Shown one piece after another: positions 4,284 through 55,136 of a stretch of DNA of 64,000 bases (position 1 is its first letter; the number at the start of each line of letters is the position of its first letter). The DNA comes from Chloroflexota bacterium. Its GTDB lineage: Bacteria; Chloroflexota; Anaerolineae; B4-G1; SLSP01. The notes beneath the pieces are model-generated. The model was not told the origin of the DNA, ran no database searches, and saw only the letters and a program-made list of their open reading frames with translations. Position numbers and translations under genes: made by a program. The stretch is from NCBI GenBank assembly GCA_029555965.1, contig JAKQHY010000129.1, positions 1,375 through 65,374 on the forward strand, written 5' to 3'.

Positions 4284-4325
4284 CGCTTCCTCCGGCCTCG
4301 GCCCGGTGATTGCCCGCGCCGCACG

Positions 4326-6515: not shown

Positions 6516-6597
6516 CGTCGTTTTCCCAAATAGCCTGGATGGTGCAGCCCCCCGACGCGATAGACGCCGCTGGGGACAGTCCTCGAATGGCTCAAAC

Positions 6598-13284: not shown

Positions 13285-13293
13285 ACGCAACCT

Positions 13294-13944: not shown

Positions 13945-13954
13945 TGTTTATGCC

Positions 13955-14305: not shown

Positions 14306-14326
14306 TGTTCCTCCAAGCTCCCTTTC

Positions 14327-14899
14327 TTAGAATTGCAGCCGCACCATGGTGGTGACAACAGTAGCTTCGCCCGATTTGCACTCAAAAGTTTTAAATCGCC
14401 AGGACAGTGTCGCGCCATAGTCGCCAATCATTGTCAATAACCCTAATTGCGAACCGCCGCCATCCCCCAGAGCATTCTTCTCAATCTGTTCCAGATACAA
14501 TTCCGCCGGGTCTTCCTCTAACAACCGCTGCACCCGCTGTTGAAACTCGTCTACTTGCTGAGGATCCATCGCGTTGCTGGTGTAGAACCGGAATTCATCC
14601 GAGAAGAGATATAACCCCAGGCTAACCGGATAATCAGCCGGTTCATAACTGAACTTCATGACGTTTTCTAACAATTCATTGGCGATGTAGTTAACGGCAC
14701 CTTTGAATTCCAGGCGCTGTTCCTCCGTCGGCCCCCCCCCTGTCGGCAAAAAAGTGGCCCAATATTCCGACAGGAAATCCGCCGAAAGGCCATTGTTCCG
14801 CCACCGTTGTTGCAACGGCATGGAGGTCGGTGAAAAGTGAATCACCAAGTACTCATATTCATCACAAGGTTCTAGAAATTCTCCAAAAGTTTTCTCCAT
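14327..14899 (-). CDS. slr1658-like regulator; atypical RsbW/SpoIIAB-type GHKL ATP-binding protein
   Basis: QRWRNNGLSADFL motif; N-box-like YIANELLENVMKF; Gly-rich GGGSQLGLLTM. Start is ATG 14899 (GGAG SD) or ATG 14944 overlapping the upstream stop. Confidence 0.75.
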   Translation of the reverse strand: MEKTFGEFLEPCDEYEYLVIHFSPTSMPLQQRWRNNGLSADFLSEYWATFLPTGGGPTEEQRLEFKGAVNYIANELLENVMKFSYEPADYPVSLGLYLFSDEFRFYTSNAMDPQQVDEFQQRVQRLLEEDPAELYLEQIEKNALGDGGGSQLGLLTMIGDYGATLSWRFKTFECKSGEATVVTTMVRLQF

Positions 14900-14940
14900 C
14901 TTCTCATCTCCCAATTGCCAGAATTGACTCAACTCAAACT

Positions 14941-20572: not shown

Positions 20573-20590
20573 AGGCTCATCCCATACGAA

Positions 20591-25153: not shown

Positions 25154-25154
25154 C

Positions 25155-28998: not shown

Positions 28999-29001
28999 CC
29001 C

Positions 29002-30738: not shown

Positions 30739-30748
30739 GTCAATTCCC

Positions 30749-32464: not shown

Positions 32465-32488
32465 ACTGCTGCTCCTAAAAATCAGGGA

Positions 32489-34840: not shown

Positions 34841-34845
34841 CTCTA

Positions 34846-37659: not shown

Positions 37660-37691
37660 AGGTTTGCCTCATCCTGTACTCCATTTTTTTG

Positions 37692-38921
37692 CTATTCGCG
37701 GTTGGGCCTAGGCCCAATATCCTCGGCAATGGTCTGGGGCGCATCAATGTGAACCGCTACCTCCGCCACGCCCGGCAGTCGCCCCAACTCGCGCACGGCC
37801 GCTTGCAACATCGTTTCCATATTCACGGCCCCCGAAAAGACCCGCGACACATCACTGAGTTGCTGCTGGTAAGTCGCGCGCTGCCGGCTGTCCGTCAACA
37901 ACTGCGCATTATCCAGCGCCAGACCGGCCTGCACGCCGATTTCCTCCACCAGCGCCACCTCCTCATCGGACCAGGGAAGCTGCACCGGGTCTCGTTCCAG
38001 CGTAATCGAACCGATCACATGGTCTCGCAAGAAAATGGGGATGACCAACTGATGCGATGTAACGACGTGCCGCCCATCCATCCCCTCCGGCACGCCCTCC
38101 TCCCACACGCGCGCGACGTTCAGACCATCATACGTATACGTGCGCGTCCCCACACGACTGCGCCACATCTCCCCCATCTGCTCCCGGTAGAGCATTTCCA
38201 GGCGTTCAACCGTGCGCCGGTTCTCCTCGAACAAGCGCGCGCCCTGAATTGCCAGGGCTAACTGGTCGGCCATCGTCTGCAAAATTTCAACATCTTCCTG
38301 GCTAAAGGCGTGAGGTTCGGTGGACTGCACATCCAGCACGCCAATAACCTGCTCGCGGATCTTCAAAGGCAGGGCCATCTCCGAGCGCGTTTCAGGCAAT
38401 TCCAATGTACTGGTCCAGGTGGGGTCTTCGCCGACATTCAATGCAATCCGCGCCTCACCACGCGCAGCCACGTAGCCCACCATCCCTTGCTCGGCCACCC
38501 GCAGTTTGTGGCCCCGCGCCAACATGCGCCGCCCCCCCTCGGAGGAAGCCGCCTGCATCACAGCGAAATCACCGGCGTCGTCCAACAAAAAAATTCCGGC
38601 GTGATAAAAGTCAAATTGCTGCGAAATCAACGCCACCAACGTCTGCATCAATTCGTCCAAGTCACGAATGGCCGCGGCATCCCGCGCCACCAACGCCGCG
38701 GCCCGGAAACGCGCCATACGCTGGGCGAACATCTCGGCCTGCCGCGCTAATTGCCGCTGCCCCGCCATCTGCGTGTTCGTCAACCCATCTATGCGCCGTT
38801 CCAACATGCGATGGTTGATTAACAAATTCTGGATGCGATGCCGCTGCCGCAGGATTATCCCCACAGTCACCACGATCAACACTACGAATACACCGATCGC
38901 CGCTAACCACATCCACGTCAT
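37692..38921 (-). CDS. Single-TM anchor + coiled coil + GAF + split-GAF module (member 16)
   Basis: N-terminal TM at residues 3-24; GAF; divergent tail (RATYQQQL). Confidence 0.88.
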   Translation of the reverse strand: MTWMWLAAIGVFVVLIVVTVGIILRQRHRIQNLLINHRMLERRIDGLTNTQMAGQRQLARQAEMFAQRMARFRAAALVARDAAAIRDLDELMQTLVALISQQFDFYHAGIFLLDDAGDFAVMQAASSEGGRRMLARGHKLRVAEQGMVGYVAARGEARIALNVGEDPTWTSTLELPETRSEMALPLKIREQVIGVLDVQSTEPHAFSQEDVEILQTMADQLALAIQGARLFEENRRTVERLEMLYREQMGEMWRSRVGTRTYTYDGLNVARVWEEGVPEGMDGRHVVTSHQLVIPIFLRDHVIGSITLERDPVQLPWSDEEVALVEEIGVQAGLALDNAQLLTDSRQRATYQQQLSDVSRVFSGAVNMETMLQAAVRELGRLPGVAEVAVHIDAPQTIAEDIGPRPNRE

Positions 38922-41146
38922 GGCTGGGCCTGCCTTTCGCTTTTGGTGGCCGGCAGCTCCACCGCAGTGGAGGCCCAGGAGGAAGGGCCACTCAGGTGAA
39001 TCTTACCGGTCGCGTGCAGCAGCCGCCCCAGCTCACGGATGGTGGTTTGCAAAACCACATCTATATCTGTGGCCGCGCCCCGAATCCGCGCGGCCAGGTC
39101 GCCGGTCAACCGCTCGCGGGCTACGCGCTCCCGTGACTCATCCAACAGCCGCACATTGTCCAATGCCAGTCCCACCTGATCGCATGTCGCTTCTACCAGG
39201 GCCAGGTCTGCCTCAGACCAGGGGGGCGCATCGGCAGATTGCTGCAACACCAACGAACCCAAAATGTGATCTCGCATCCGAATAGGCGCCACCAGGCGGC
39301 GCTGATCCCCCTCGGTTAGCACGGTGACGCGCTCCTGCGGCGTGACCGTGAATTTTTGCAGCGTGCGCCCCGACGCGGTTTCCACGCGCACACCGGTATA
39401 ATGATAAGCGGCCAGCTCCCGAGAAAGCCGCGCCTGCCAGGCAGTGTGAATCTGCTCGCCATACCGTCGCTCCAATTCCCGCACGGCGAACTCACTCTCC
39501 CGCAGCAATCGCGCATTCTGAATCGCCAGCGCCACCTGTTCGGCCATTGTCTGTAAGACGACCACATCCTCATTCGTAAAGGCCGCAGCCTGTTCCGATT
39601 GCACGTCCAACACCCCAATGACCCGGCTGCGCGCCGTCAGCGGCAGCGCCATTTCGGAGCGCGTCGCCGGAATGTCTGGGTTAGCCACAAACGCGCCGTC
39701 AGCATCTACATCCAGAGCGATGCGGGGCTGGCCGGTGCGCGCCACCGCGCCGACAATACCCTGGCCGAGTTTAAGCCGGTGCCCCCGCGCCAACATCCGC
39801 CGGCCGCCCTCTGAAGAAACGGCCCGCAAAACAGCATATTCTTCGGCCTCGTCCAACAAAAAGATACCGACGTGAGCGACTTCCAGGTGCCTCGGAATCA
39901 ATCGCGCCGTTTCATCCAGCAATTGATCGACATCGTAGATGGCCGAGACGGCGCTGGCGACACGCGCCGCCGCTTCGAGCTGGCGCGAGCGTTTTTCAAG
40001 GGCCTGGGTGCGCACTTGCACTTGCCGCTCCAGTTCAGCATACGAGGTCCGCAATTGCGTGGTCATTTGATTGAAGGTCTGCGCAAATATGCCCAACTCA
40101 TCCTGCGTGACCACCGGAACCTGCCGATCCAACCGCCCCTGCGTAACCTCGTGGGCCACCTCGGTCAAAACGCGCAAGGGGCGCACCCCCTGCCGCATCA
40201 GGAAAAAGGCGCCCACCAAGAACAGCACGGACACCGCCGTCCCGGCCACCAACACGTTCATCGCCAAACTCCGCGCCGGCGTTAAAATCGCATACTCTTC
40301 GTCCACCTCGGCCAGCAAACCCAGATCATGTTCATCAATCCAGTGATAAACGCCCACCACGGAACGCCCCTCATAATTCGGGTAGACCGCCTGACCGTCC
40401 TGCTGCGCCGTGACCGCGCGCACTCCGACAGTCGGGGTCTCCAGGTCCGCCCCGGCCGCCAGCAGCGCTCGCGGCGCCATAATGAAGTCGCCATCGCCAT
40501 CCACCAGGAAGGCCTCGCTGCGAGCGCCCAGGCCAGGGCTTTCCAGGATGATTTGCTGCATCCGCTCCAAATTCAAGTGCGCCGCCAACACCCCGATACG
40601 TTCCCCCGCAGGGTCGAACAGGGGAGTGGCGACAGTGATCGTCGGATCGCCATCCTCTAGGAGGTAAATATTCTGCACATAGATGCGCAAGCGACCTTGA
40701 ATGAAATATTCGGCCTCGGCATAGGACTGTCCTTCACGCGCCGGGTTGGTGGAGATCAGCACCTGGCCGTCCGGCTCGGCAAGCACGAAAATTTCCCGAA
40801 ATCCGGCGCGCTGCGTGACTGCCGTTCGCAAATAAGCCCTAAATGCGGGATAAATAGCCTCCCGCGCCGTTTCCCCCTGAAGCAGTTGCGTGGCCCACTG
40901 GCGCACCGGAACCTGCCCGGCCATCCATGTGATATTCTGCCGTTGATCCGTCACCCAACGTTGCAATTCATCTTCCTTCAGTGTCACCACCGATTCCAGG
41001 CGATTGAAGACCGAGGTAGTGAGGTTACGTTGCGCCAAAGTGTAGGCCAAATATCCCATCAAGCTGATGGTCAACAATAGCAACAGCATGACATAAACGA
41101 GGACCCGGTTGACCAGGCTTTTCGTGACGAAGGACCAGAACCTCAT
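38918..41146 (-). CDS. Sensor with dCache_1, HAMP, GAF, split-GAF module (member 17)
   Basis: AEYFIQG dCache; HAMP QDELGIFAQTFNQM; GAF; tail. ATGA overlap. Confidence 0.9.
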   Translation of the reverse strand: MRFWSFVTKSLVNRVLVYVMLLLLLTISLMGYLAYTLAQRNLTTSVFNRLESVVTLKEDELQRWVTDQRQNITWMAGQVPVRQWATQLLQGETAREAIYPAFRAYLRTAVTQRAGFREIFVLAEPDGQVLISTNPAREGQSYAEAEYFIQGRLRIYVQNIYLLEDGDPTITVATPLFDPAGERIGVLAAHLNLERMQQIILESPGLGARSEAFLVDGDGDFIMAPRALLAAGADLETPTVGVRAVTAQQDGQAVYPNYEGRSVVGVYHWIDEHDLGLLAEVDEEYAILTPARSLAMNVLVAGTAVSVLFLVGAFFLMRQGVRPLRVLTEVAHEVTQGRLDRQVPVVTQDELGIFAQTFNQMTTQLRTSYAELERQVQVRTQALEKRSRQLEAAARVASAVSAIYDVDQLLDETARLIPRHLEVAHVGIFLLDEAEEYAVLRAVSSEGGRRMLARGHRLKLGQGIVGAVARTGQPRIALDVDADGAFVANPDIPATRSEMALPLTARSRVIGVLDVQSEQAAAFTNEDVVVLQTMAEQVALAIQNARLLRESEFAVRELERRYGEQIHTAWQARLSRELAAYHYTGVRVETASGRTLQKFTVTPQERVTVLTEGDQRRLVAPIRMRDHILGSLVLQQSADAPPWSEADLALVEATCDQVGLALDNVRLLDESRERVARERLTGDLAARIRGAATDIDVVLQTTIRELGRLLHATGKIHLSGPSSWASTAVELPATKSERQAQP

Positions 41147-42984
41147 ACGTTATCCTCCACATCGGCAGGCGGGTGTAAAGGTTGCGTGCGTCGAATCTGG
41201 CGACTCTCCCCCAATCCCAGACGGATCAGACCATCGGAGGCGCGCAGTGACCGCCCCAACTCGCGGATAGCCGTCTGCAAAATCGTGTCCACATCCGTGT
41301 GCCGGCGAATCTGCGCCGTGATGTCGGTCACGCGCCGCTCGCGCGCCGCTCGCTGCGTCATCTCTTCTATCAGGTGAATGCTCTGCAACACCAGTGCGGC
41401 CTGATCGGCCAGACTACGGTACACCCGCCGTTCCCGCTCGGTGAAATGGTAGGGAGTGCGTTGCGCGGCAGCCAGCAGCCACCCCCACAACTGCCCCCCG
41501 GCCACCAGCGGCACCAGGATGAACGCGCGAAGGCGCAGGATTTCTTGGTACACCTGCCGCGAGGTTTCGTCCAGATGCGGGGCGACAGCAATATCGTCCA
41601 CCGCCAAAACCGTAGTCGTCGTCTGCGCCATCGCCGGGATTTTCGCCACCTCCCAGCGGTCCCCCAGCAAAGGAGACCGGGCCTTGCCCGCATCCCAGGC
41701 GGCTCCCAGGCGCACCAAAGCGCCTGGCCCTGCCGTGCCCGGCTCGATCAAAGCCAACGCGCACCGGTCAATCTCCGGCGCGATCAAATAATCCACAAAT
41801 GCCCGCAGCACTTGTTCTTCTGAGCGCGCCACCCCCAGCGCCTGGCTGCACCGATACAAGACGCCGACTTCCTCCAGCGCCGTCTGCATCTTGCTGAACA
41901 GGCGGGCGCTTTCCATCGCGCGTCCGGCTTCATCCACCACGGCCCGCGCCAGGTCCAGATCGTCAGAGTTCAGCGCGTCGGCATCCGCGAAAATTTTCAA
42001 CTCGCCCATCGCCTCACGCCCCCCCCGGAGCGCCAACACCCATGAGGGAGGGCGGTCGCCAAGGTCCAGTTCGGCGGCGGCTTTCACTTCGATGCCATCA
42101 TATCCGTATCCCCATTGCTGCCGCTCCTGCGTCAAACGGCCCCACTCCTCCTCCCCCTGGGTGCGGAGCAAACGGTTGATCTCGTTGATTTGGGCCTCGG
42201 TCGTGGCCTGGATATGCGCGGTGCGCCAAATCAGGCTCAATTCATCGGCCAGCATTTGCAACAGGGCACATTGCTCTGGAACAAAAGCGCCGGCCCCTTC
42301 CGAGTGGACATCCAAGACCCCAATCACATCGCCCTGCGCGCGCAAAGGGAAGAGCGCTTCAGCGCGGGTTTGCGGGAACGGGAAATCTTCAGGCGCAAAT
42401 AGCGGAAGAGAAGCCATGAGGCACTGCCCCTGCGCCAGCACTGCGCTAAAATCCGCAGATTCTGCCAACGTCACCTTGTAGCCTTCCTCCAATAGATGCC
42501 GCCCCACCGTCGAGGAGGCCGCGCGCAACAAAGCCGTCTGCCGCGACTCATCCAACAGAAACAATCCCACGTGATAGAACCCCAATTGTTCGGATAGATG
42601 GCGAACCGTTGCGTTCAGCCACTCTTCTGCGGTGAGCGCCGTTGCGATTTGCTGCGAAACCCGCGCCGCAGCCTCCACCCGCGCAGTTTGCCGTTCCACC
42701 CCTGCGGCTTGCGCCGCGACCTGTTCCTCCAGGGTCGCCAACCGGGTTTGCCAATGGGTGGACAATGCCGCCAATGCCCGCGCCAACGCGCCCACTTCAT
42801 CCGAACGTTTTTCGGCGGGAAGCGCCCGCCACTCGCCCGCCGCAAGGCGCGCAGCAGCAGCGGTCAAAGCGCGCAGCGCACGCCGCTCATTGCGCACCTG
42901 GACCAGAGTGACGCCGAAGGCCACCCCGACGACGCCCAGCGCCAACACACCGACGATCAGTAAGAGATTCAACTCTCCTAACAT
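41143..42984 (-). CDS. TM-HAMP-GAF-short core-full GAF-tail protein (member 18)
   Basis: Start re-assigned to ATG 42984 (GGAGG SD). HAMP SDEVGALARAL; an extra complete GAF lies before the tail. Confidence 0.85.
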   Translation of the reverse strand: MLGELNLLLIVGVLALGVVGVAFGVTLVQVRNERRALRALTAAAARLAAGEWRALPAEKRSDEVGALARALAALSTHWQTRLATLEEQVAAQAAGVERQTARVEAAARVSQQIATALTAEEWLNATVRHLSEQLGFYHVGLFLLDESRQTALLRAASSTVGRHLLEEGYKVTLAESADFSAVLAQGQCLMASLPLFAPEDFPFPQTRAEALFPLRAQGDVIGVLDVHSEGAGAFVPEQCALLQMLADELSLIWRTAHIQATTEAQINEINRLLRTQGEEEWGRLTQERQQWGYGYDGIEVKAAAELDLGDRPPSWVLALRGGREAMGELKIFADADALNSDDLDLARAVVDEAGRAMESARLFSKMQTALEEVGVLYRCSQALGVARSEEQVLRAFVDYLIAPEIDRCALALIEPGTAGPGALVRLGAAWDAGKARSPLLGDRWEVAKIPAMAQTTTTVLAVDDIAVAPHLDETSRQVYQEILRLRAFILVPLVAGGQLWGWLLAAAQRTPYHFTERERRVYRSLADQAALVLQSIHLIEEMTQRAARERRVTDITAQIRRHTDVDTILQTAIRELGRSLRASDGLIRLGLGESRQIRRTQPLHPPADVEDNV

Positions 42985-43009
42985 CTCCACCTCCGGCGCC
43001 GCCCGCAGA

Positions 43010-45235
43010 TCATGCGCGTGAAACCTCGCCGGCGCCACTGACCTCAATGGTCGTCAATTCGGCTTGCAACAGGCGGCCCAGGGCCTGCACCGTTGTCTTC
43101 ATAATCACGTCCGGGTCCAAAGTCGCACGCAATTGCCCACCGATCTCCCCCACCAGACGGTCACGCGCGGCGCGGTCGCGGGTCTCTTCCAACAAACGCG
43201 CCACCTCCAAAGCCTGGGCGATCCCTTGCGCAGCCTGCTGCACAAATTGCATTTCCTGCGAAGTCCAGGGGTGCGTCGCTGGACGATTCAAACGCAGAGC
43301 GCCAAAAGTTCGCCCGCCCAGCATCCGCAACGGCGACACTAATGTGTTGGCGGCAGTGATATGCGTGGACTCCACAGTGTCGGACGGCATCTCGGTGAGA
43401 TAGGGGATCGGGCGGGTTTCTTCGGGCGTATAACGGTAGCCCAGCAACGCCGAAGCGCGCGCGCGCCATCCCTGTTCTCCCGTTTCCCCATACGCCCGCT
43501 GCAATTCTTGCAACGCCCGCTGACTATCCTGAAATAGTTGCGCATTCTGAATCGCGATGGCGATTTGATCGGCCAGCACCCGCAACGTTTCCACATCTTC
43601 CGTGGAAAAAGCGTTCGGCGCTTCGCTTTGAATATCCAGAACACCCAGCAGACGGTTGCCCACGCTCAGCGGCAGGGCCATTTCCGATCGGGTGGTCGGC
43701 AAATCAAGGCTTTTCATCCACACCGCATCCACATCTACATCCAACGCGATGCGCGGACGCCCGGTGCCCGAAACATACCCCACAATGCCCTGTTCCCCCA
43801 CCCGCAAGCGATGTCCACGCGCTAACATATTCCGCCCCCCTTCGGAAGATGCGGCGCGCAAAACGGCCCATTCCCGGCTTTCGTCCAACATAAAAATGGC
43901 AATGTGATAAAAACCAAACCGGTCGGTGATCAAATGCGCGACGCGCGGCAGCAACTCTTCCACATCCAGGATGGCATTGGCAACTCGGCTGACCTGTCCG
44001 GTGACTGCCAGATATGTGGCGCGCTGTTCCAACTCGCGGGTGCGTTCCGCCACCCGCGACTCCAAGGAGTGAATCAATTCCCGAAGTTGCGTCGTCATAC
44101 TGTTAAAGGCCCGTCCGAGCATACTCAACTCGTCCGGGCCTTCTGCGATCACGGCGCGGCTGAGATCGCCTGCGGCGATGGCATTGACTGTTTCTGTCAT
44201 GCTCGCAATAGGACGAAAAGCCTGACGCAGCGTCAAGAAAAACGCCAGGGCCAACATGGCCACGCCAACCCACCCCACCAACCACGCAGACTGCATAAAG
44301 GAACGCATTCCAGATAGCAGTTCTGCTTCCTGCTGCTGCACCACAATCCCCCAGCCGGGGCCGCCCTCGCGAACCACCGCCCACCAACGGGCATCATCCG
44401 TCGCAAATTTTACCCATGGGCCGCGCCCGGCGCGCAAGGCCTCTACGGGGGCCGTAGTACTCATATCGGTCAACGGTGTTGTAGCGTGCAGGTCCGGGTG
44501 CGCCAGCAGGCGATTTTCGCTGTCCACAATATAAGTGTAGCCAGTATTGCCGACTTGACGAGTCCGCACCTGAGCGGCCACATCGGACAAAGCGCAGGCA
44601 AACATCCCGACGCCCACCAAGTTTCCCTCCCTATCACGGATAGGCATGGCGCCGATCAACGCCGGAGCATTGATTGCAGGATCCAGGGCAACCTGAAAAA
44701 CCTGGGGGGCGCCATCCAGCACCGCCTGAAACCAATCCTGAGCGGCGTAGTGTTCCGGTGGGAGCGCGTCGCTGCGGGTCACATTCATTCCGGTCAGGTC
44801 TAACGTACTCACCAAGTACATGGTGGGGTGAGTCTCCGCCATCATTTCCAGAAGGGCGCGCTGCTGCGCCGGATCCATACTAACAATGGCCGGATCGGAC
44901 ACCAATCGGCTCAAGACGCCTGCGTGAAGGTCAACCCACACCTCGGCATTGGAAAGCAATGCAGCGTTCAAAACTTCCAGGCGCTGGGATTCCTGCTTCT
45001 CCACCACACGCACCGCCGAGACTGTCACCCAGACCACCCCACCCGTTAGAATCGGCGCAGTGATCGCCAATAGCAAGAAGGTCAGGCGCGTGCGCAACAG
45101 CCAGCGTTGCCGCCCGGTGCTGGCGGGATGTCGCAGATTCAATAGCACGAGATAGGCCAGCAGCACTGCTTCCAGGAAAAACGACGTCCAGGCGAACCAT
45201 TGCAATATCTGGCTAAAGGATGGTGTCAGGGTCAT
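43010..45235 (-). CDS. Sensor with dCache_1, HAMP, GAF, split-GAF module (member 19)
   Basis: Start ATG 45235 (ATGA overlap, GGAGG SD); QDWF dCache; HAMP PDELSMLGRAFNSM; GAF; tail. Confidence 0.9.
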   Translation of the reverse strand: MTLTPSFSQILQWFAWTSFFLEAVLLAYLVLLNLRHPASTGRQRWLLRTRLTFLLLAITAPILTGGVVWVTVSAVRVVEKQESQRLEVLNAALLSNAEVWVDLHAGVLSRLVSDPAIVSMDPAQQRALLEMMAETHPTMYLVSTLDLTGMNVTRSDALPPEHYAAQDWFQAVLDGAPQVFQVALDPAINAPALIGAMPIRDREGNLVGVGMFACALSDVAAQVRTRQVGNTGYTYIVDSENRLLAHPDLHATTPLTDMSTTAPVEALRAGRGPWVKFATDDARWWAVVREGGPGWGIVVQQQEAELLSGMRSFMQSAWLVGWVGVAMLALAFFLTLRQAFRPIASMTETVNAIAAGDLSRAVIAEGPDELSMLGRAFNSMTTQLRELIHSLESRVAERTRELEQRATYLAVTGQVSRVANAILDVEELLPRVAHLITDRFGFYHIAIFMLDESREWAVLRAASSEGGRNMLARGHRLRVGEQGIVGYVSGTGRPRIALDVDVDAVWMKSLDLPTTRSEMALPLSVGNRLLGVLDIQSEAPNAFSTEDVETLRVLADQIAIAIQNAQLFQDSQRALQELQRAYGETGEQGWRARASALLGYRYTPEETRPIPYLTEMPSDTVESTHITAANTLVSPLRMLGGRTFGALRLNRPATHPWTSQEMQFVQQAAQGIAQALEVARLLEETRDRAARDRLVGEIGGQLRATLDPDVIMKTTVQALGRLLQAELTTIEVSGAGEVSRA

Positions 45236-46908
45236 TGCGCCTCCCACTGCACCGGTGTCAGATAAATCTGCACTTCATGGGCATCCAACACCCGCCCCAG
45301 TTCTTGGACACTGCTTTCCATAATGGCTGCCGTGCTCGGGTTGCGCCACACAACATCATCCAGACGCCCCAACTGCTCCTGGTAGAACGCTTGACGCCGG
45401 GTCTGCACCAGCAGGCGTGTATTGTCCAACGCGAGCGCCAACCGTTCAGCAGCCGCCTCGATAAAAACGCGCGTCTCGGCATCCCAGTCGCCCTGTTCCA
45501 CCGAGCGGGTAAAAGCCAGATAGCCCAACGGGACATCCCGCGCAATCAAAGGGACCACCAGCAGGTAATCATCCGTTCCCTCAACGGGGGGGCATGAGCG
45601 TATTGCGCGATCTCGTAACGCCTCAGCCGCTAAAGTCTGGACCGCAGCTTCCGGCAACGCGCCGGCGGTATAAGACAGCTTTAACTTTGCCTCCAATAAC
45701 GAGCGCCACCCGGCCGTTGTGTATTGGCTGTACAACGTTCGCATCTCCTGAAGCTGGCCGTTGATCTCTTCCAGCGCGGCTAGCATATCCAGAGAGGCGG
45801 TTACATAGCCGGCAACGACCCGGAAAAGTTGCATATCACTGTCGGAGAAGGTGGCTTCGGTGCTGTGAATATCCAAAACACCGAGCAACTCACCGCGCAC
45901 CACCAGGGGCAAGGCCATCTCCACCCGGCTCAATGGAAACTCCTCAGCCTCATCTGGAGAGAGCACCCGCACCTGTTCGCGCCCGGTTTGCGCCACTTGT
46001 CCTAGCAGTGAGCGCTCGCCAACCCACACAGAAAATCCCTCCGCGACCAGCGCCTCCCCCTGCGCCCCAGCGGCGGCGGCCAGAATCAAGGTTGAACCGG
46101 TGCGGTCGGTCAAGAAGACATTGACTTGATACAAGTCGAGGCTGCGTTCCATATCTCGCACCGTGCGCCACGCCACCATTTCTCGCCGCCGCAGGGAGGC
46201 CAGCGCATTGCCAAATTCGGCCACCCACTGCATCCGCACCGCGTGCAAGTAGGCGTACTCAGCATTTTGCTCGGCTTGCATCCGTTGTGTATCTAACTTA
46301 TTCGCCAGGTCGTGGCTCTTGATCAGCACTTCCCGGAAACGGGATACCAGTTGATTCAAAGAGGTGATCACGAAGGCGCTGACAAACAATAACGTCAAGG
46401 TGTAGCTAAACCAGGCCATAGGTTTATGGGACAAGACCTGAACACTGACCGGTATCTTCAAGATCTCCAGCGAGAATAACCCGGCAAACTCGCTCATTGT
46501 CAACATAGAGAGCGCCAACGCGACAAATCCGGCCCGCCGCCCCAGAAATACCACGGCCATCAAAGGTAACATCAGCAAAAACAAGCGCACATTGCTCGAT
46601 AGTCCCCCGCGAAAGACCGATAACAGCGCAAGGCCATAGGCCAGTGCCAATAAAGCGCCGATTCGCACATGGTAGGGGATGCGCCTAGCCACATAGAGGA
46701 TTCCCAAGGCGCAGAACAAAACGACATACGCCAATCCATACATCCAGTTGCCATCGGTCGCAACATAATACCCACCCACAATCAACGCCGGGAATCCTGC
46801 CAGAAAGAGTACGCGCATGACATGGGTCAACAGCGTATGCCGCAACTCCCGGATTTCGGAATCCGCCGCGGCTACTTCCGGCGCGTTCTGCTTCTGTTCG
46901 TCTCTCAA
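45232..46908 (-). CDS. Multi-TM (MASE-like) membrane sensor + divergent GAF + split-GAF module (member 20)
   Basis: TTG start with GGGAGG SD; about 6 TMs; GAF (SRVEMALPL...GVLDIHS); divergent tail. Confidence 0.85.
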   Translation of the reverse strand: MRDEQKQNAPEVAAADSEIRELRHTLLTHVMRVLFLAGFPALIVGGYYVATDGNWMYGLAYVVLFCALGILYVARRIPYHVRIGALLALAYGLALLSVFRGGLSSNVRLFLLMLPLMAVVFLGRRAGFVALALSMLTMSEFAGLFSLEILKIPVSVQVLSHKPMAWFSYTLTLLFVSAFVITSLNQLVSRFREVLIKSHDLANKLDTQRMQAEQNAEYAYLHAVRMQWVAEFGNALASLRRREMVAWRTVRDMERSLDLYQVNVFLTDRTGSTLILAAAAGAQGEALVAEGFSVWVGERSLLGQVAQTGREQVRVLSPDEAEEFPLSRVEMALPLVVRGELLGVLDIHSTEATFSDSDMQLFRVVAGYVTASLDMLAALEEINGQLQEMRTLYSQYTTAGWRSLLEAKLKLSYTAGALPEAAVQTLAAEALRDRAIRSCPPVEGTDDYLLVVPLIARDVPLGYLAFTRSVEQGDWDAETRVFIEAAAERLALALDNTRLLVQTRRQAFYQEQLGRLDDVVWRNPSTAAIMESSVQELGRVLDAHEVQIYLTPVQWEAQ

Positions 46909-46932
46909 CTCTGCCTCCCTAAAAACTCGGTC

Positions 46933-48831
46933 CTAATCCTCCCCCGGCGGCGCCAGGGACACCAGCACACTCTCTGCCTGTACAGCATCCTGGAGCAACT
47001 GCGCGGATTGCGCCACCATCGTTTCCAGATCAGGAATGCGCAACACCTGTTCGCCAAACTCCCGCAGCCAGCGTTCGCGCCCCACGCGGGTCTGCGCCTC
47101 ATGCAACAGCCGGATCCGCTCCAAGGCCACCGTCGCCAGATTCGTGAGCACGCGCTGAAGCTGCCCCTGGAGTGGGGTAAACTGATGCGGGGTGTTGTAG
47201 GTAATCAAAACCACCCCAAGACACTGTGATTCCATCCGCATAGGCGCCAGCGTCAACGCCAAAACGCCCAATTCGGCGGCAAGATTGGATAATAACCGGT
47301 CCACATCCGCGCTGCCAGAATGATAGGGCATACTCAAATCACCGATTACCAGAGAGGATTCTAACATAGCCCCAAAATTAATGAGATCTCCGATGTGGTG
47401 TATGGCCGCTGCCGTGATATATTGTTCATAAAAACTCATGTCGCCGCCGCGCATTTCGGCTACCAGGTATGCTTGTTCTGCCGGGGGCGTGTGCGAATTG
47501 GGTAAACGGCTTTGGCGGAAGATAAACACTCGCGCCGGGTTAAAGTCGCGCAACGCCCCCAACATCGCGGCGTAGATCTCGCGTTCGGTGCGCGTGGTCG
47601 CCAGTTGATGCGCAAGCCGATACAAGGGGCTGGCCGCCTCCAGGACGGCGGCTTCGTCCCCCAAACGCCGCGCATTGTCCACCGCCACCGACAGCAGCCC
47701 GGCCAGGCCCTGAAGGGCATGCACATCATCCTGATCAAAAATAACTTCTTCGCCGCTGTACACATCCAACACCCCAATCAGCCGGCTGCCCACCATCAAC
47801 GGCAAGGCCGCCTCCGAGCGCACTACGGCCAAGTCCACTTCTGTCGCATAGGCCACATTGCGCCGGCCTTTGGTCACAATACACGGCTCTTGATTGGCTA
47901 ACACCATCCCCACCGCATTCAGGTCGCCGACGCGCCAACGTTGTGAGCGCATGGTCATGCGCCGACCGCCTATTGAGGCAGCCGCATGAAGCTGAACCGA
48001 TTGGCCCTCATCGTCTGTCAAAAAAATCGCCGCGCGGTAGAAATCAAAGTGCTGCACAATGAGGTTCACAGCCTGTTCCAACAGAATTTCAGCCTCAAAA
48101 ACCGTTGCTAACGCCTGAGAGACCTGGGTGCTGGCCTCCAAAAACATAGCCCGTCGCTGCAAATTGGTATTGGCCTCCTGAAGCGTCCGCGTCCGTTCGG
48201 CTAAAACAGCTTGCTGTTCTTCCAGGGAAATAGAAAGAGCCGCACTTTTTTGCAATGCAGTAAGCAAACGAGGAACCAGATAATTGAATGAGGCATAGAG
48301 TCCAATCGTCACAGCGACAAAAATAACCAGCCCAACGAGTAAAGAAAAATGAGGATAGGCGGCTGTCGGATAGAGAGGCGGAACAAATACTCCGGTCACA
48401 ATACCCACAACGAACAGTCCCAGAACAACACAAATCCCGATCAACACACCCAGGCCATGACGCCCACCCAGGAAAAGGGTCGCAAACAGCATGGCGCCCA
48501 GCCAGTAGATGCGCACATCCCGCCCCCAACCGTAAGTCAATAAATCCCCTAACCCCAACCCCAGAAGCACTGCTAAAAAAGCCCACACCCGTAGAGGATA
48601 AGGGATCTGCGGAACAAAAGCCCCGATAATAATCACGCTATAGGCGCCCAGGATGACCGGCGTCAGCCAGAGCGCCTGAGTCACATAGACATAATACAAA
48701 GCGAGCAACACCACCGGAAAAGTTGCCGCCGTAATCATCCGCAACGTCCGCGCAAACAAATTGCGCTGCCAAACGCCCATATCCTCTCTGGACATCAGCG
48801 CATCGGCAACCGGCACTTGTTTCTTACTCAC
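46933..48831 (-). CDS. Multi-TM membrane sensor + GAF + second full-length GAF + tail (member 21)
   Basis: Start re-assigned to GTG 48831 (GGAGG SD, overlaps the kinase TAA). About 6 TMs, two GAFs, tail RVGRERWLREFGEQV. Confidence 0.83.
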   Translation of the reverse strand: MSKKQVPVADALMSREDMGVWQRNLFARTLRMITAATFPVVLLALYYVYVTQALWLTPVILGAYSVIIIGAFVPQIPYPLRVWAFLAVLLGLGLGDLLTYGWGRDVRIYWLGAMLFATLFLGGRHGLGVLIGICVVLGLFVVGIVTGVFVPPLYPTAAYPHFSLLVGLVIFVAVTIGLYASFNYLVPRLLTALQKSAALSISLEEQQAVLAERTRTLQEANTNLQRRAMFLEASTQVSQALATVFEAEILLEQAVNLIVQHFDFYRAAIFLTDDEGQSVQLHAAASIGGRRMTMRSQRWRVGDLNAVGMVLANQEPCIVTKGRRNVAYATEVDLAVVRSEAALPLMVGSRLIGVLDVYSGEEVIFDQDDVHALQGLAGLLSVAVDNARRLGDEAAVLEAASPLYRLAHQLATTRTEREIYAAMLGALRDFNPARVFIFRQSRLPNSHTPPAEQAYLVAEMRGGDMSFYEQYITAAAIHHIGDLINFGAMLESSLVIGDLSMPYHSGSADVDRLLSNLAAELGVLALTLAPMRMESQCLGVVLITYNTPHQFTPLQGQLQRVLTNLATVALERIRLLHEAQTRVGRERWLREFGEQVLRIPDLETMVAQSAQLLQDAVQAESVLVSLAPPGED

Positions 48832-51220
48832 TCTGGCCTCCCGCGGCAAGCTCCATCGGCTTCTCGGCTTCGGTAAGCGCTTCCCCATAACAGGGTAGGG
48901 AAAACGTAAACATACTGCCCTCATCTACCCGACTCTGCGCCCAAATTTGCCCGCCGTGCATTTCCACGAATTCCTTGCACAGGGCCAGTCCCAAACCGGC
49001 GCCCTGTTGCGGATTGCGTCGTGCAGAGCCTTGGTTGAACCGCACAAAAATGCGTTCCAGGTCTTCCGGGGGAATTCCCACTCCGGTATCGCTCACACTC
49101 ACATACACCCAATCGTCCCGATACCAGGCGCGCAAGGTAATCCGTCCTTTGTAGGTAAACTTCGCAGCGTTATTAAGTAAATGCACCAAAACCTGGCGGA
49201 TGTGAGAGGGATCAATGCGCAACAAGGGCAGATCTTCAGGGATGTCCCGCACCAGCTCCACATCCTTACCCTGAACCAACGCGGTAGCAGTGGGCATCAC
49301 CCCGGCAACGACTTCGATAAGATGGATAGGCTGAAGTTTCAACTCCATCAACCCGGCCTGGATCTGTGAAATTGCCAGGATATCGTTGATCAGGAACAGC
49401 AGGCGCTGGCTATCCGCGTAGACGCGCTCCATATCCTGCTGCTGCAATTCCGTCAGTGGGCCATCCACCCCCTTGATCAGCAACCGCGAGAAGCCAATAA
49501 CGGTGTTCAAAGGTTCGCGCAAAGCGTGCGACATATTCGCCAAGAATCGCGCCTTGAAGGCTTCCGCCTCCTCCAAATGCTGCGTTGCCACCCGCTCCCG
49601 CTCGTAAGCCCGTGCATTTTCGACCGCAATAGCAATCTGATTGGCTAAGAGTTCCAACACCTCTAGCTCGTCGGGCTGCACCCCTTCATGCTCGGTGCTC
49701 AGGGCGGCAATCGCGCCGATGACCCGCTCCCCCATCCGCAACGGCACGGCGACCCGACTTAACGTGCGGCGATACCAATCTACTTCTTCGTGAGTTTCCT
49801 GGTGCTCTACCTGGGAAACGCGCTTGCGAATGGCCCGTTCGACGGTGGAGCCGTCGCCTGGGTATACATAATCGGCCCAGCCCCCGATTTCTCCCTCCGC
49901 GCTAGGACGGGCGCCCCGCACGTCTGGGCTGAGCGCATTCAGCGCTGCCGCGCCCCCTCCGGGTTCCACCATATAGATAGCAACCGACGCATACATAAAA
50001 CTGTCACGAATCAGATCGGCCATCTGCATAAACAACAAATCCGGATCGCGCACTGAGGTGATCGCCTGACTCACCTCCTGGCTGGCCTGCAAATGGAGCG
50101 CGCGCCGCTGAATCTGATAGTTCGCCCGTTGCAACATTCGTGTGCGATCGACTACCTTCGCTTCCAGGTCCGCATACAGCGATTTCAGTTGCGCGGCCAT
50201 ATCATTAAACACGTAGGTCAGGATGCCGATTTCATCACGCGATGTGACCGCCAGATGTTGATCCAGCTCCCCTTCTGCCATCGCCAGCGCGGATTCCGTC
50301 AAGCGAATCACGGGCAGGGTGATCTGCCGGATCACTACCGCGGCAATCGCAGTAGTGACCAACGCAACGGCCAACACCAGGGCGATGAATGTTGCCGCGA
50401 TCAACTCGACCGACTCCAACGTCTGCGATTGAGGCTGCTCTACCAAAATACCCACGTCCGCATTCGGCAGAGGGTAGTATGCTCCCGTCACCGCAATAGC
50501 AACGTTGTTGACATACGTGCCGCTGCCCGGCTGGCCGCCTGGCGTCCAACCATTCATCGGCTGCGAACACGGCGTCGTCGTGCTCGGCCAGAGACACATC
50601 TTGTGAATCAAATAGACCCGAGTGGTGCCATCGGACACGCCCTCGTGGTGGATCACTCGTTCGATCATGGCGCCATCCATACAAAAAAGCAGGGAGCGAT
50701 CTTGATATTCAATTGGTAAAAAAACAGTTGCACCCAAATCAGAAACGGCAAACTCCGCCGGGGAAGAAAACAAGTTGGCCCCTGAGATCGTGAGGCGAAA
50801 TTGATCCCAGGCCTGAGCACACTCGCCGGCGGTCCAACGGGACTGTTCCTCCGGCTGCCACACCACCACGCCAGTCAAATCGGGGATTTGCTGCGTGAGG
50901 GTCGTCCACCACTCCGTGTAATCATCGGTGTTGTCGGCCAATTTCACCGACAGCAATAACACCGATTGCAAATCGTCAAACCAACGCTCAAGTTCCTCGC
51001 CCTTGAGGGCAGCGACCGCCAATAACTTACTTTCTACTTCACGCTGCACATTCTCGCGGTTTTGCTGCACAGCGTAACTGACCGTGAGCGTCAACGGCAA
51101 AATCGTCAAAATTAGAAACGCAGTCAGCAAAGTGCGACCTAAGCCGCCGCGCATACCGGTGGTAGGGACTGGTCGGGGGACGTTCGCAGATAAACGTTCC
51201 CCGCCTATTCCGGCTCCCAT
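48824..51220 (-). CDS. dCache-HAMP-GAF sensor histidine kinase (HisKA + HATPase_c) with non-canonical H-box
   Basis: H-box FLANMSHALREPLN; N-box HLLNNAAKFT; G1 DTGVGI; F IFVRF; G2 GAGLGL. GAGGAGG SD. Confidence 0.92.
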   Translation of the reverse strand: MGAGIGGERLSANVPRPVPTTGMRGGLGRTLLTAFLILTILPLTLTVSYAVQQNRENVQREVESKLLAVAALKGEELERWFDDLQSVLLLSVKLADNTDDYTEWWTTLTQQIPDLTGVVVWQPEEQSRWTAGECAQAWDQFRLTISGANLFSSPAEFAVSDLGATVFLPIEYQDRSLLFCMDGAMIERVIHHEGVSDGTTRVYLIHKMCLWPSTTTPCSQPMNGWTPGGQPGSGTYVNNVAIAVTGAYYPLPNADVGILVEQPQSQTLESVELIAATFIALVLAVALVTTAIAAVVIRQITLPVIRLTESALAMAEGELDQHLAVTSRDEIGILTYVFNDMAAQLKSLYADLEAKVVDRTRMLQRANYQIQRRALHLQASQEVSQAITSVRDPDLLFMQMADLIRDSFMYASVAIYMVEPGGGAAALNALSPDVRGARPSAEGEIGGWADYVYPGDGSTVERAIRKRVSQVEHQETHEEVDWYRRTLSRVAVPLRMGERVIGAIAALSTEHEGVQPDELEVLELLANQIAIAVENARAYERERVATQHLEEAEAFKARFLANMSHALREPLNTVIGFSRLLIKGVDGPLTELQQQDMERVYADSQRLLFLINDILAISQIQAGLMELKLQPIHLIEVVAGVMPTATALVQGKDVELVRDIPEDLPLLRIDPSHIRQVLVHLLNNAAKFTYKGRITLRAWYRDDWVYVSVSDTGVGIPPEDLERIFVRFNQGSARRNPQQGAGLGLALCKEFVEMHGGQIWAQSRVDEGSMFTFSLPCYGEALTEAEKPMELAAGGQSE

Positions 51221-51624
51221 ACCTCCTCACCTTGCAGGACGCGGCGTATTTGTTCGGGGAATCGCTCCGGATCCAAAGGCTTGCCGATAAACCCGTTAAA
51301 TCCAGCCTGCCGCGCGCGGCTGAGGTTCTCGCGGGAGACGTGGGCCGTCACGGCCACAATCGGCACATCCGTGAAACGTTTATGCGAGCGTAATGAAGCC
51401 AACGCCTGAAACCCGTCAGCGTCCGGTAAATTCACATCCATCAACACCAGACTGACATTGCCCAGCGTCTCGGCAAACTCCAGCACTTTCCAGCCGGAAG
51501 CCTTCCACTCGCACTTTTTCACACCCAAAAAGGCCAGCAAGCGCGTCATCAAAATGAAGTTGTTGAGATTATCCTCTACAATTAGGATGACCGCATCTTT
51601 AGGGGGGGTCGGCTTCCATACCAT
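51205..51624 (-). CDS. Single-domain response regulator (receiver only)
   Basis: ILIVEDN, LVLMD(VNLP), VTA and GKP motifs are intact. Confidence 0.92.
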   Translation of the reverse strand: MVWKPTPPKDAVILIVEDNLNNFILMTRLLAFLGVKKCEWKASGWKVLEFAETLGNVSLVLMDVNLPDADGFQALASLRSHKRFTDVPIVAVTAHVSRENLSRARQAGFNGFIGKPLDPERFPEQIRRVLQGEEVWEPE

Positions 51625-51666: not shown

Positions 51667-52068
51667 CTACCCGCGCGCATCCAAAAAACGCCGGATCTGA
51701 CGCGGCAACTCGTCCACGTCAATCGGCTTGGGGATATAGCCATCGCAACCGGCCTCCAACGTCTTCTCCTTATCTCCCAACATCACGTTGGCGGTCATAG
51801 CAATAATGGGGATCTTTTTGATTTCTGGGATGGCCCGAATCTGTTTGGTCAATTCATAGCCATCCACTTCCGGCAAATTCATGTCCATCAGAATCAGATC
51901 CGGAATTTCGCGCAAAGCCAACTCAATACCCGTCCGACCATCTTCGGCCTCAATGACAACGTAATCTTCTACCAAAAGGATGCGGCGCACCAACATACGA
52001 TTGCCAGGATTGTCTTCAATATACAAGATTTTTTCACCACGACCGCTAGTTTCCTCGTCAAAGAACAT
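51667..52068 (-). CDS. Single-domain response regulator, DivK-like
   Basis: ILYIEDN, LILMDMNLPEVDG, AMTANVM and PKPID motifs. Start ATG 52068 with GGGAG SD. Confidence 0.93.
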   Translation of the reverse strand: MFFDEETSGRGEKILYIEDNPGNRMLVRRILLVEDYVVIEAEDGRTGIELALREIPDLILMDMNLPEVDGYELTKQIRAIPEIKKIPIIAMTANVMLGDKEKTLEAGCDGYIPKPIDVDELPRQIRRFLDARG

Positions 52069-52116
52069 ATTTGCTCCCTTCATGCCTTGTGTTTACGTTG
52101 TCTCGTGACTGTCTAA

Positions 52117-55058: not shown

Positions 55059-55070
55059 GGCTAAACTATC

Positions 55071-55136
55071 TCAATACATTCAACAGATTGAACAGATAAA
55101 AACGGAAAAACCCGTTTCATCCATTCAATCCGTTGA
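55071..55136. repeat. Intergenic copy of the nonamer inverted-repeat element
   Basis: TCAATACAT-TCAACAGAT-TGAACAGAT-AAAAACGGAAAAACCCGTTTC-ATCCATTCA-ATCCGTTGA. Confidence 0.7.

What the first reader, a model, noticed from the sequence alone, without database searches (positions are those of the whole stretch)
49505..49540. The only histidine kinase has H-A-L-R-E instead of H-E-L-R-T: possible pseudokinase or scaffold-activated kinase
Seen: ANMSHALREPLN (His codon at 49526-49528, then GCT Ala, and GAA Glu at H+4). The first N-box Asn is His (HLLNNAAKF), while G1, F and G2 are intact. Known: in HisKA kinases the acidic H+1 residue is needed for autophosphorylation and the H+4 Thr/Asn for phosphatase activity. 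Inference: this may be a DivL-like ATP-binding pseudokinase or docking protein for the DivK-like receivers next to it, or it may be activated by partners in the array.
Basis: partly seen in the sequence, partly recalled or inferred. Interest (0 to 1): 0.65.

Follow-up and report, generated by a model that had tools for sequence, protein, structure and literature searches.

The report
Phosphatase-type kinase heading a sensor array
The histidine-kinase gene at the head of a huge array of sensor genes in an Anaerolineae bacterium carries the same three active-site substitutions as a bacteriophytochrome shown to have no kinase activity and to act as an ATP-dependent phosphatase. It therefore most likely removes phosphate from the two neighbouring receiver proteins, while a canonical giant kinase at the far end of the array adds it.

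Summary
The 798-aa HAMP-GAF-HisKA-HATPase protein (48824-51220, minus strand) reads FLANMSHALREPLN and HLLNNAAKFT, with intact G1, F and G2 boxes.

It is not an error or local drift. The same-genus species has the same codons, and Ala at H+1 arose at least four times in the orthologue family, with different Ala codons.

Family-wide, Glu at H+4 and loss of the first N-box Asn are the rule. H+1 is the one variable site in a frozen H-box (E/A/D/T/H/G, at least 10 changes). The phospho-acceptor His itself is replaced by Arg, Gly or Gln in positional orthologues. The ATP-binding residues never change.

A giant hybrid kinase closing the same arrays keeps HELRT and the N-box Asn in 20 of 20 genomes.

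The triad of non-acidic H+1, Glu H+4 and N-box His is that of Deinococcus DrBphP, which is kinase-dead and an ATP-dependent phosphatase. The most likely reading is therefore a kinase-deficient, phosphatase-biased transmitter acting on the two adjacent receivers.

A pure DivL-like pseudokinase or a slow non-canonical kinase remain possible. This is a new member of a known kind, in an unusual genomic setting.

The parts
48824..51220 (-). Array-head sensor 'kinase' gene (798 aa from the first ATG). The start is probably Met23 at 51154, as in the 776-aa database copy P0002. Domains: TM, extracytoplasmic domain, TM, HAMP, GAF, HisKA, HATPase_c.
49505..49540 (-). H-box ANMSHALREPLN: His565 (49526-49528), Ala566 at H+1 (49523-49525), Glu569 at H+4 (49514-49516).
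   Evidence: Parsimony changes per column in 113 family members: 0-1 for neighbouring residues, 3 for His, 10 for H+1, 3 for H+4.
49352..49555 (-). HisKA (DHp) domain, residues 556-623.
   Evidence: PF00512, E 3.1e-16. Closest paralogue DHp in the genome is the tail hybrid kinase: 51% identity, 106 bits against 80 for the next.
49154..49192 (-). N-box VLVHLLNNAAKFT. His680 (49181-49183) replaces the first Asn. Asn684 (49169-49171) is the invariant Mg-ATP Asn.
48890..49213 (-). HATPase_c (CA) domain, residues 670-777, with G1 DTGVGI (49073-49090), F-box (49037-49051) and G2 GAGLGL (48986-49003). All are invariant in the family.
   Evidence: AF2 model of the core: pLDDT 83, CA part 94-98. Foldseek top hits are WalK, HK853 and DivL.
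49616..50335 (-). Input module: HAMP (50183-50335), coiled coil and GAF (49616-50047). Homologous (28-30% identity) to the cytoplasmic part of the output-less array sensors downstream.
51205..51624 (-). RR2, a single-domain receiver directly upstream. Phospho-site residues are present (ED, D in LVLMD, T, K).
51667..52083 (-). RR1, a single-domain receiver. Best solved relatives are PleD Rec1 and DivK. Phospho-site residues are intact. It is highly conserved across the order.
61..48831 (-). Downstream array of sensor-(HAMP)-GAF genes without an output domain. It includes a GAF-SpoIIE phosphatase and a DUF6272 gene. The array continues on contig C162 and ends there in a 2381-aa hybrid kinase.

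Best explanation
The protein is a signal-regulated transmitter that has lost, or nearly lost, autokinase activity. What it keeps is the reverse reaction: it binds the two adjacent single-domain receivers and dephosphorylates them, with nucleotide bound to its intact CA domain as cofactor.

The catalytic dyad that activates the His for attack on ATP is gone on both sides: the H+1 acid is now Ala566, and its partner, the first N-box Asn, is now His680. The residues used on the receiver side are kept: His565, Glu569 at H+4, the DHp docking surface and every ATP-binding residue.

The phosphodonor for the receivers is most likely the canonical hybrid kinase that closes the same gene array. Its DHp is the closest paralogue in the genome.

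Shown here: the sequence features, their conservation and lability, the synteny, and the canonical tail kinase.
Taken from experiments on other proteins: E-to-A kills autokinase, and the triad of non-acidic H+1, Glu at H+4 and N-box His gives an ATP-dependent phosphatase in DrBphP.
Inferred: that this protein behaves the same way, that RR1 and RR2 are its substrates, and that the tail kinase is the donor.
For: (1) The triad Ala566 / Glu569 / His680 is present. DrBphP has His533 / Glu536 / His648. It shows no autokinase activity. Its phosphatase activity needs ATP, is abolished by E536T/N/D and reduced by E536A (PMC8292422; preprint).

(2) E-to-A at H+1 abolishes autophosphorylation but not phosphatase activity in CrdS, HK853, HK4262 and HK1190, with a similar result reported for NtrB E140A. 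CrdS H371A keeps phosphatase activity. In CpxA, Glu249 bonds Asn356 and N356Y is kinase-deficient.

(3) In 113 family members, H+1 changes at least 10 times (E68, A34, D6, T4, H1) while its neighbours change 0-1 times. His is lost at least 3 times (11 Arg, 1 Gly). N684, D711, G713, G715, F725 and G740-L745 change 0 times. Glu at H+4 is present in 110 of 113.

(4) Ala arose in at least 4 clades, uses GCT, GCG or GCC, and all 34 Ala variants keep His. This fits a His still needed for something other than autophosphorylation.

(5) H+4 decays (Gly, Met, Asp) almost only where His is lost: 5 of 6 His-less 50%-identity clusters against 0 of 14 His-bearing ones.

(6) The tail hybrid kinase of the same arrays has [16 protein letters not shown] and the first N-box Asn in 20 of 20 genomes. 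In 119 related giant kinases, His is present in 116, an acidic H+1 in 116, Thr at H+4 in 116, and the N-box Asn in 95 of 95 recognised.

(7) RR1-RR2-HK synteny with intact phospho-Asp holds in 34 of 38 loci, including His-less ones.

(8) The head and tail DHp share H+7 Asn, H+11 Gly and H+12 Phe.
Against: No biochemistry exists for any member of this family.

In DrBphP, Arg at H+7 contributes to receiver binding; here H+7 is Asn572. Putting Glu at H+4 of Agp1 did not create phosphatase activity, and CrdS N375D lost both activities. Glu at H+4 is therefore context-dependent.

The first N-box Asn is missing even in sister lineages that keep HELRT, so its loss alone may not abolish kinase activity.

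Some His-less orthologues have also lost Glu at H+4 yet keep all ATP motifs. The family's most conserved role may therefore be non-catalytic.

Invariant ATP-binding motifs are also what an active kinase would show.
Confidence: 0.5

Rival explanations
1. DivL-like non-catalytic pseudokinase. The DHp-CA module neither phosphorylates nor dephosphorylates. It senses or sequesters phosphorylated RR1/RR2 (or nucleotide) and passes that state back through GAF/HAMP to the sensor array or to the tail kinase.
For: Positional orthologues with Arg, Gly or Gln in place of the phospho-acceptor His exist in the same TPR-YfhO-like-RR-RR-HK-array context. Several of these have also lost Glu at H+4 while keeping the N, G1 and G2 motifs. 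CrdS E372A/N375A is K-P-. RR1 is DivK/PleD-like. DivL is among the best structural and sequence matches, at 37-38% identity.
Against: This protein and all 34 Ala variants keep His and Glu at H+4, which a pure docking protein would not need. DivL binds nucleotide poorly and has Tyr throughout its homologues, whereas here the ATP motifs are invariant. The DrBphP precedent shows that this exact triad is catalytically active as a phosphatase.
Confidence: 0.22
2. Still a working autokinase with non-canonical chemistry. The family-invariant Glu at H+4 (one helical turn from His), a partner protein, or simply a slow uncatalysed step replaces the H+1 base. H+1 then only tunes the rate.
For: His is kept in about 90% of the family and in every Ala variant. 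All ATP-binding and lid residues are invariant. Glu at H+4 decays only where His is lost, so the two work together. About two thirds of the family still has Glu or Asp at H+1.
Against: E-to-A, G, Q and even D abolished autokinase activity in CrdS, and E-to-A did so in three further HisKA kinases, with a similar result for NtrB. Agp1 D529H is kinase-dead, and DrBphP H533D did not regain kinase activity. The dyad partner Asn is also missing. The tail kinase in the same genomes never varies at these sites, so the variation is specific to the head protein.
Confidence: 0.2
3. Sequencing or assembly error, or a decaying pseudogene.
For: The genome is a metagenome-assembled genome at 85% completeness. 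Reads could not be inspected.
Against: The open frame is intact. The identical codons occur in a second species of the genus. HALRE is present in 34 database sequences from many assemblies. GCT is two steps from GAA/GAG. The rest of the protein is strongly conserved.
Confidence: 0.02

Closest known systems
Deinococcus radiodurans bacteriophytochrome DrBphP, histidine-kinase module (Multamaki et al. 2021, PMC8292422)
   Same: HisKA/HATPase_c transmitter with a phospho-acceptor His, a non-acidic H+1, Glu at H+4 and His in place of the first N-box Asn. ATP-binding motifs are kept and a single-domain receiver is encoded next to it. DrBphP has no kinase activity and is an ATP-dependent phosphatase that depends on the H+4 Glu.
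   Different: H+1 is Ala here, not His. H+7 is Asn, not the Arg that helps DrBphP bind its receiver. The input is TM-HAMP-GAF rather than a bilin photosensory module. There are two receivers. The gene heads a 50-90 kb array of output-less sensors. There is no close common ancestry: PDB phytochrome chains match only at E about 1e-18.
Caulobacter DivL pseudokinase (Childers et al. 2014, PMC4211667)
   Same: An HK-like protein next to, or partnered with, a DivK-type single-domain receiver. The canonical catalytic residues are lacking. It is among the best matches by fold and sequence, at 37-38% identity. The His-less orthologues in other species are DivL-like.
   Different: DivL has Tyr for His in all its homologues, keeps H+1 Glu and H+4 Thr, binds nucleotide weakly, has PAS inputs and controls CckA. 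This protein keeps His and has invariant ATP motifs.
Engineered K-P+ and K-P- HisKA mutants (CrdS E372A, HK853 E261A, CrdS E372A/N375A; Willett & Kirby 2012, PMC3510030)
   Same: The natural sequence reproduces the E-to-A change that abolishes autokinase activity while sparing phosphatase activity.
   Different: These are laboratory mutants of bifunctional kinases with Thr/Asn at H+4. Here the change is natural, recurrent and combined with Glu at H+4.
RetS-GacS type kinase-kinase modulation in Pseudomonas
   Same: Two paralogous transmitter modules sit in one pathway, one canonical and one atypical. RetS and GacS cores are among the structural matches.
   Different: There is no evidence here for heterodimers. 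RetS is a hybrid protein with receivers, whereas in this system the hybrid partner is the canonical one.

Membership tests
Class I HisKA/HATPase_c histidine kinase (PF00512 + PF02518) | HisKA and HATPase_c domains above Pfam gathering scores | tested here: met
   HisKA 59.6 bits (cut-off 26.9); HATPase_c 104.5 bits (cut-off 26.4). AF2 and Foldseek give a DHp-CA fold.
Class I HisKA/HATPase_c histidine kinase (PF00512 + PF02518) | Phospho-acceptor His in the H-box | tested here: met
   His565 aligns with HK853 His260.
Class I HisKA/HATPase_c histidine kinase (PF00512 + PF02518) | Acidic residue at H+1 (general base for autophosphorylation) | tested here: not met
   Ala566. An acidic H+1 is present in 116 of 119 related giant kinases.
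Class I HisKA/HATPase_c histidine kinase (PF00512 + PF02518) | First N-box Asn (partner of the H+1 acid) | tested here: not met
   His680 aligns with the first N-box Asn of HK853. Asn is present in 95 of 95 control kinases.
Class I HisKA/HATPase_c histidine kinase (PF00512 + PF02518) | ATP-binding residues (second N-box Asn, G1, F, G2) | tested here: met
   Asn684, DTGVGI, RIFVRF and GAGLGL, with zero changes in 113 relatives.
Class I HisKA/HATPase_c histidine kinase (PF00512 + PF02518) | Autophosphorylation with ATP | not testable with these tools
   Needs a [gamma-32P]ATP assay.
DrBphP-type kinase-dead, phosphatase-active HisKA transmitter | Non-acidic H+1 together with loss of the first N-box Asn | tested here: met
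   Ala566 and His680 here, against His533 and His648 in DrBphP.
DrBphP-type kinase-dead, phosphatase-active HisKA transmitter | Glu at H+4 | tested here: met
   Glu569, present in 110 of 113 family members.
DrBphP-type kinase-dead, phosphatase-active HisKA transmitter | Arg at H+7 contributing to receiver binding | tested here: not met
   Asn572 at H+7.
DrBphP-type kinase-dead, phosphatase-active HisKA transmitter | ATP-dependent dephosphorylation of the cognate receiver, with no autokinase activity | not testable with these tools
   Only the intact nucleotide-binding motifs and adjacent phospho-competent receivers could be shown.
DivL-type pseudokinase | Non-phosphorylatable residue in place of the His, conserved among homologues | tested here: not met
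   His565 is present. Arg, Gly or Gln occur only in some orthologue lineages.
DivL-type pseudokinase | Impaired nucleotide binding in the CA domain | tested here: not met
   All ATP-binding motifs are canonical and invariant. Binding itself was not measured.
DivL-type pseudokinase | Partner is a DivK-like single-domain receiver, bound in its phosphorylated form | tested here: inconclusive
   RR1's best solved relatives are PleD Rec1 and DivK (E 1e-24 to 1e-26), and it is adjacent in 34 of 38 loci. Binding is not testable here.

The most novel reading that the evidence does not exclude
The array is a push-pull signalling hub. A canonical hybrid kinase sits at the tail and a dedicated phosphatase or pseudokinase at the head. 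Both carry the same GAF-type input as the 25-45 output-less sensors encoded between them, and together they set the phosphorylation of two small receivers.

Evolution repeatedly switches the head protein between bifunctional (H+1 Glu/Asp), phosphatase-only (Ala/Thr/His/Gly) and inert (His to Arg/Gln, H+4 Gly/Met) states, while always keeping its ATP site. That would imply a nucleotide-dependent role beyond phosphoryl chemistry, for example in assembling or gating the sensor array.
Probability: 0.18. Interest if true: 0.75.

Novelty: new member of a known kind. Interest (0 to 1): 0.45.

Why it matters
It provides a natural, recurrent example outside the phytochromes of the residue triad shown experimentally in DrBphP to turn a HisKA kinase into a phosphatase.

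It offers a ready-made evolutionary series for testing which residues decide kinase against phosphatase output: Glu, Asp, Ala, Thr, His or Gly at H+1, and His, Arg, Gln or Gly at the acceptor site.

It also changes how the surrounding 50-90 kb sensor array should be read.

Tried and rejected
I relied on the second species of the genus and on many independent assemblies instead.

Assembly error or drift: rejected.

'Only kinase': rejected at genome and array level.

RR1 and RR2 as duplicates of the tail kinase's own receivers: not supported. Their best genomic matches are other proteins and the tail kinase is not among the top hits.

The array sensors' weak hits to my kinase-core profile (E 1e-6 to 1e-11) come from the shared GAF/linker part and not from a hidden DHp.

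The idea that His680 could act like the general-base Glu at the same position in GHKL ATPases (mentioned in PMC3904827) was dropped. Orthologues have Arg, Gln, Lys or Gly there.

The monomer AF2 model and the Foldseek search confirmed the fold only. They cannot show activity or head/tail heterodimers.
Full report
**What is there.** The finding lies in a minus-strand gene, 48824..51220, of 798 aa. Pfam finds HAMP (296-346), GAF (392-535), HisKA (556-623) and HATPase_c (670-777). Two hydrophobic segments flank an extracytoplasmic region of about 220 aa that has no Pfam hit.

The H-box reads FLANMSHALREPLNT. His565 is CAC at 49526-49528, Ala566 is GCT at 49523-49525 and Glu569 is GAA at 49514-49516. 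The N-box reads QVLVHLLNNAAKFT. G1 (DTGVGI), F (RIFVRF) and G2 (GAGLGL) are canonical. In the phmmer alignment to HK853, His680 falls on the first N-box Asn and Asn684 on the ATP/Mg Asn.

**Context.** The window is contig C33:1375-65374 of an 85%-complete Anaerolineae genome assembled from a metagenome. Almost the whole window is one minus-strand run of genes.

In transcription order these are: epimerase-like genes, a TPR protein, a 913-aa protein (YfhO-like in relatives), two single-domain receivers (RR1 51667-52083, RR2 51205-51624), this kinase gene, and then about 25 genes for sensor-(HAMP)-GAF proteins. The sensor inputs are dCache, MASE11, periplasmic-binding or PAS domains. No sensor gene has an output domain. 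A GAF-SpoIIE phosphatase and a DUF6272 protein sit mid-array.

The kinase's own HAMP/coiled-coil/GAF part is 28-30% identical to the array members. It is therefore an array member whose C-terminal end is a transmitter.

The array continues on contig C162 and ends there in a 2381-aa hybrid kinase: PAS, many GAFs, HisKA with [22 protein letters not shown], HATPase_c and two receivers. In 18 related genomes the head kinase and this tail kinase lie on one contig and one strand, 17-91 kb apart, with the tail always downstream. The tail kinase is by far the closest paralogue of the head core in the genome. The DHp is 51% identical (106 bits against 80 for the next hit) and the core is 47% identical (225 bits against 172).

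**Not an error, not local drift.** The orthologue in the second species of the genus (89% identical) has the same CAC GCT codons and a synonymous difference nearby. The third species (61% identical) has HELRE.

Among the 120 best database relatives, 113 belong to the family and 34 of these have Ala at H+1. On a maximum-likelihood tree the Ala variants form at least four separate groups. These are the query's clade of 8, a clade of 18, a clade of 7 and one single sequence. Glu-, Asp- and Thr-bearing lineages separate them. The Ala codon is GCT, GCG or GCC in different lineages, and it also varies within one clade. All four groups sit in the same RR1-RR2-HK-MASE11/GAF context. Ala at H+1 is thus a recurrent, maintained state.

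**The family pattern.** The minimum numbers of changes per column in the 113 family members are:
- H-box: F559 0, N562 0, M563 1, S564 0, His565 3, position 566 (H+1) 10, L567 1, R568 1, Glu569 3, P570 0, L571 0.
- ATP-binding positions: N684, D711, G713, G715, F725 and G740/G742/L743/G744/L745 all 0.
- His680: 8 changes (His, Arg, Gln, Tyr, rarely Asn).

H+1 is therefore the single free site in a frozen motif (E68, A34, D6, T4, H1). The phospho-acceptor His is replaced by Arg in 11 sequences and by Gly in 1.

The Arg variants are true positional orthologues. They sit in the same epimerase, TPR, YfhO-like, RR1(-RR2), HK, GAF-array neighbourhood, and the receivers there keep their phospho-Asp.

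The species-level set of 38 loci from the order gives the same picture:
- Ala at H+1 in three genomes, Asp in three, Thr in one and Gly in one.
- Arg for His in two.
- Thr at H+4 in one sister family (HELRTPLTN), Glu elsewhere.
- The first N-box Asn present only twice.

In a search of 1.8 billion cluster representatives, the family collapses to about 20 clusters at 50% identity. Six of them lack the His (Arg or Gln) and five have a non-acidic H+1.

The controls are stable:
- All 20 tail kinases examined have HELRT and the first N-box Asn.
- Of 119 related giant multi-GAF kinases, 116 have His, 116 have an acidic H+1 and 116 have Thr at H+4. The N-box Asn is present in 95 of 95 recognised.
- The contrast is 11 of 20 against at most 6 of 119, Fisher p about 2e-7. 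The clusters are not phylogenetically independent.
- In the window's own genome, no other recognisable H-box among about 95 has Ala at H+1 or Glu at H+4.

**What the residues mean.** In the CpxA Michaelis complex, the H+1 Glu hydrogen-bonds the His N-delta and the first N-box Asn across the DHp-CA interface, and N356Y is kinase-deficient (PMC3904827). E-to-A at H+1 abolished autophosphorylation in CrdS, HK853, HK4262 and HK1190, with a similar result reported for NtrB, and left phosphatase activity intact. CrdS H371A also kept phosphatase activity (PMC3510030).

Deinococcus DrBphP has His533 at H+1, Glu536 at H+4 and His648 at the first N-box position. It shows no autokinase activity even after H533D and is an ATP-dependent phosphatase of its neighbouring single-domain receiver. 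E536A reduces that activity and E536T/N/D abolish it, whereas E536Q keeps it. In the authors' large sequence sample, loss of the N-box Asn and gain of Glu at H+4 go together with a non-acidic H+1 (PMC8292422; preprint). The window's protein has this same triad.

**Most likely mechanism (confidence about 0.5).** The protein is a kinase-deficient, phosphatase-biased transmitter.
- Input from its sensor/HAMP/GAF module sets the DHp-CA conformation.
- With nucleotide bound to the intact CA domain, it docks RR1~P and/or RR2~P and promotes hydrolysis, using His565 and Glu569.
- The phosphoryl groups come from another kinase, most plausibly the canonical tail hybrid kinase. Its DHp helix-1 matches at the positions after the His that usually carry partner specificity: H+7 Asn, H+11 Gly and H+12 Phe (the role of these positions is general knowledge, not tested here).

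This reading explains four observations:
- His and Glu569 stay in all Ala variants.
- The ATP site never changes.
- H+1 is free to vary.
- H+4 decays to Gly, Met or Asp almost only in lineages that have lost the His: 5 of 6 against 0 of 14 clusters, p about 4e-4.

All functional steps are inferred from sequence and from experiments on other proteins.

**Rivals.**
- *(a) A DivL-like inert sensor of receiver~P (0.22).* The His-less and H+4-less orthologues that still keep the ATP site show that some conserved role is independent of DHp chemistry. However, DivL's defining features (Tyr for His throughout, weak nucleotide binding; PMC4211667) are not met by this protein.
- *(b) A working but non-canonical kinase (0.2).* The conserved His and ATP site allow it. 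The mutational precedents and the missing dyad partner argue against it.
- *(c) An artefact (0.02).*

**Comparison and novelty.** The protein works most like DrBphP's output module but is not a phytochrome and not closely related to one. Phytochrome chains match only at about 1e-18, whereas GacS, VicK, HK853 and DivL match at 1e-31 to 1e-38. It is a member of the HisKA/HATPase_c superfamily that fails two of the residue criteria for an active kinase.

I file it as a new member of a known kind, a naturally kinase-dead, phosphatase-type HisKA protein. What is new is the setting and the evolutionary behaviour. It is an order-wide lineage of array-head transmitters that repeatedly loses kinase residues while an invariant canonical kinase closes the same array.

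**Limits.** No reads could be inspected. The trees used a quick search. The motif tallies for the giant kinases rest on regular expressions. No activity, binding or heterodimer test is possible with these tools.

Noticed in passing
own genome contig C162:33236-40378 (minus); relatives L041-L060: A 1800-2700 aa hybrid kinase (PAS, many GAFs, HisKA, HATPase_c, REC-REC) closes the sensor array 17-91 kb downstream of the head kinase, on the same strand, in 18 genomes. Its H-box F[LM]A[NS][18 protein letters not shown] is identical in 20 of 20.
   Followed up: partly
L021:10001-12619, L022:10001-11524, L018, L029; proteins P0122-P0124, P0130, P0131, P0204: Positional orthologues of the head kinase have Arg, Gly or Gln instead of the phospho-acceptor His. 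They often also have Gly or Met at H+4, yet the N, G1 and G2 ATP motifs are intact and phospho-competent receivers lie upstream.
   Followed up: partly
proteins P0139, P0151, P0152, P0225: A more distant lineage combines H-A-L-R-T with Ala at the first N-box position (ALLSNAVKFT). Two members lack recognisable G1 and G2 motifs. This may be a second, independent route to a dead kinase.
   Followed up: no
L022:9204-11524 and L023:7666-9986: In one Arg-variant species the head kinase is called as two genes: 266 aa (sensor part) plus 507 aa (HAMP to CA), overlapping by 4 bases. The same split appears in two independent assemblies (ENA and JGI).
   Followed up: no
window 51154-51220: The longest ORF starts at ATG 51220 and overlaps the RR2 stop by 16 bases. 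The database copy P0002 starts at Met23 (51154), which leaves a gap of about 50 bases. The true start is probably the latter.
   Followed up: no
window 51205-51624 (RR2) against 51667-52083 (RR1): RR2 carries a 10-residue insertion after helix 1 and an 8-residue deletion before strand 3 relative to RR1. Both features are conserved in a distant orthologue. Its best solved match is the second (adaptor) receiver of PleD, whereas RR1 matches PleD Rec1 and DivK.
   Followed up: partly
window 52317-59330; L021:3737-9348; L022:1888-8238: The genes upstream of the receivers are conserved with the array head: NAD-dependent sugar epimerases, a TPR protein and a roughly 900-aa YfhO-like membrane protein. 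This hints that the output concerns envelope glycan synthesis. In L021 the YfhO-like gene is split (493 + 444 aa) and only RR1 is present.
   Followed up: no
own genome C192:12332-14755 and C192:152-2404: Two other atypical H-boxes occur in the same genome: SHQFRTPV (Gln at H+1) and AQELRTPV (Gln in place of His). They lie about 10 kb apart on one contig.
   Followed up: no
L038 (G023:C57:5700-11200): The head kinase of this genome is broken at the H-box into a 573-aa and a 270-aa frame, with masked or unknown residues (XX) and one TAA. This is either an assembly gap or a disrupted gene.
   Followed up: no
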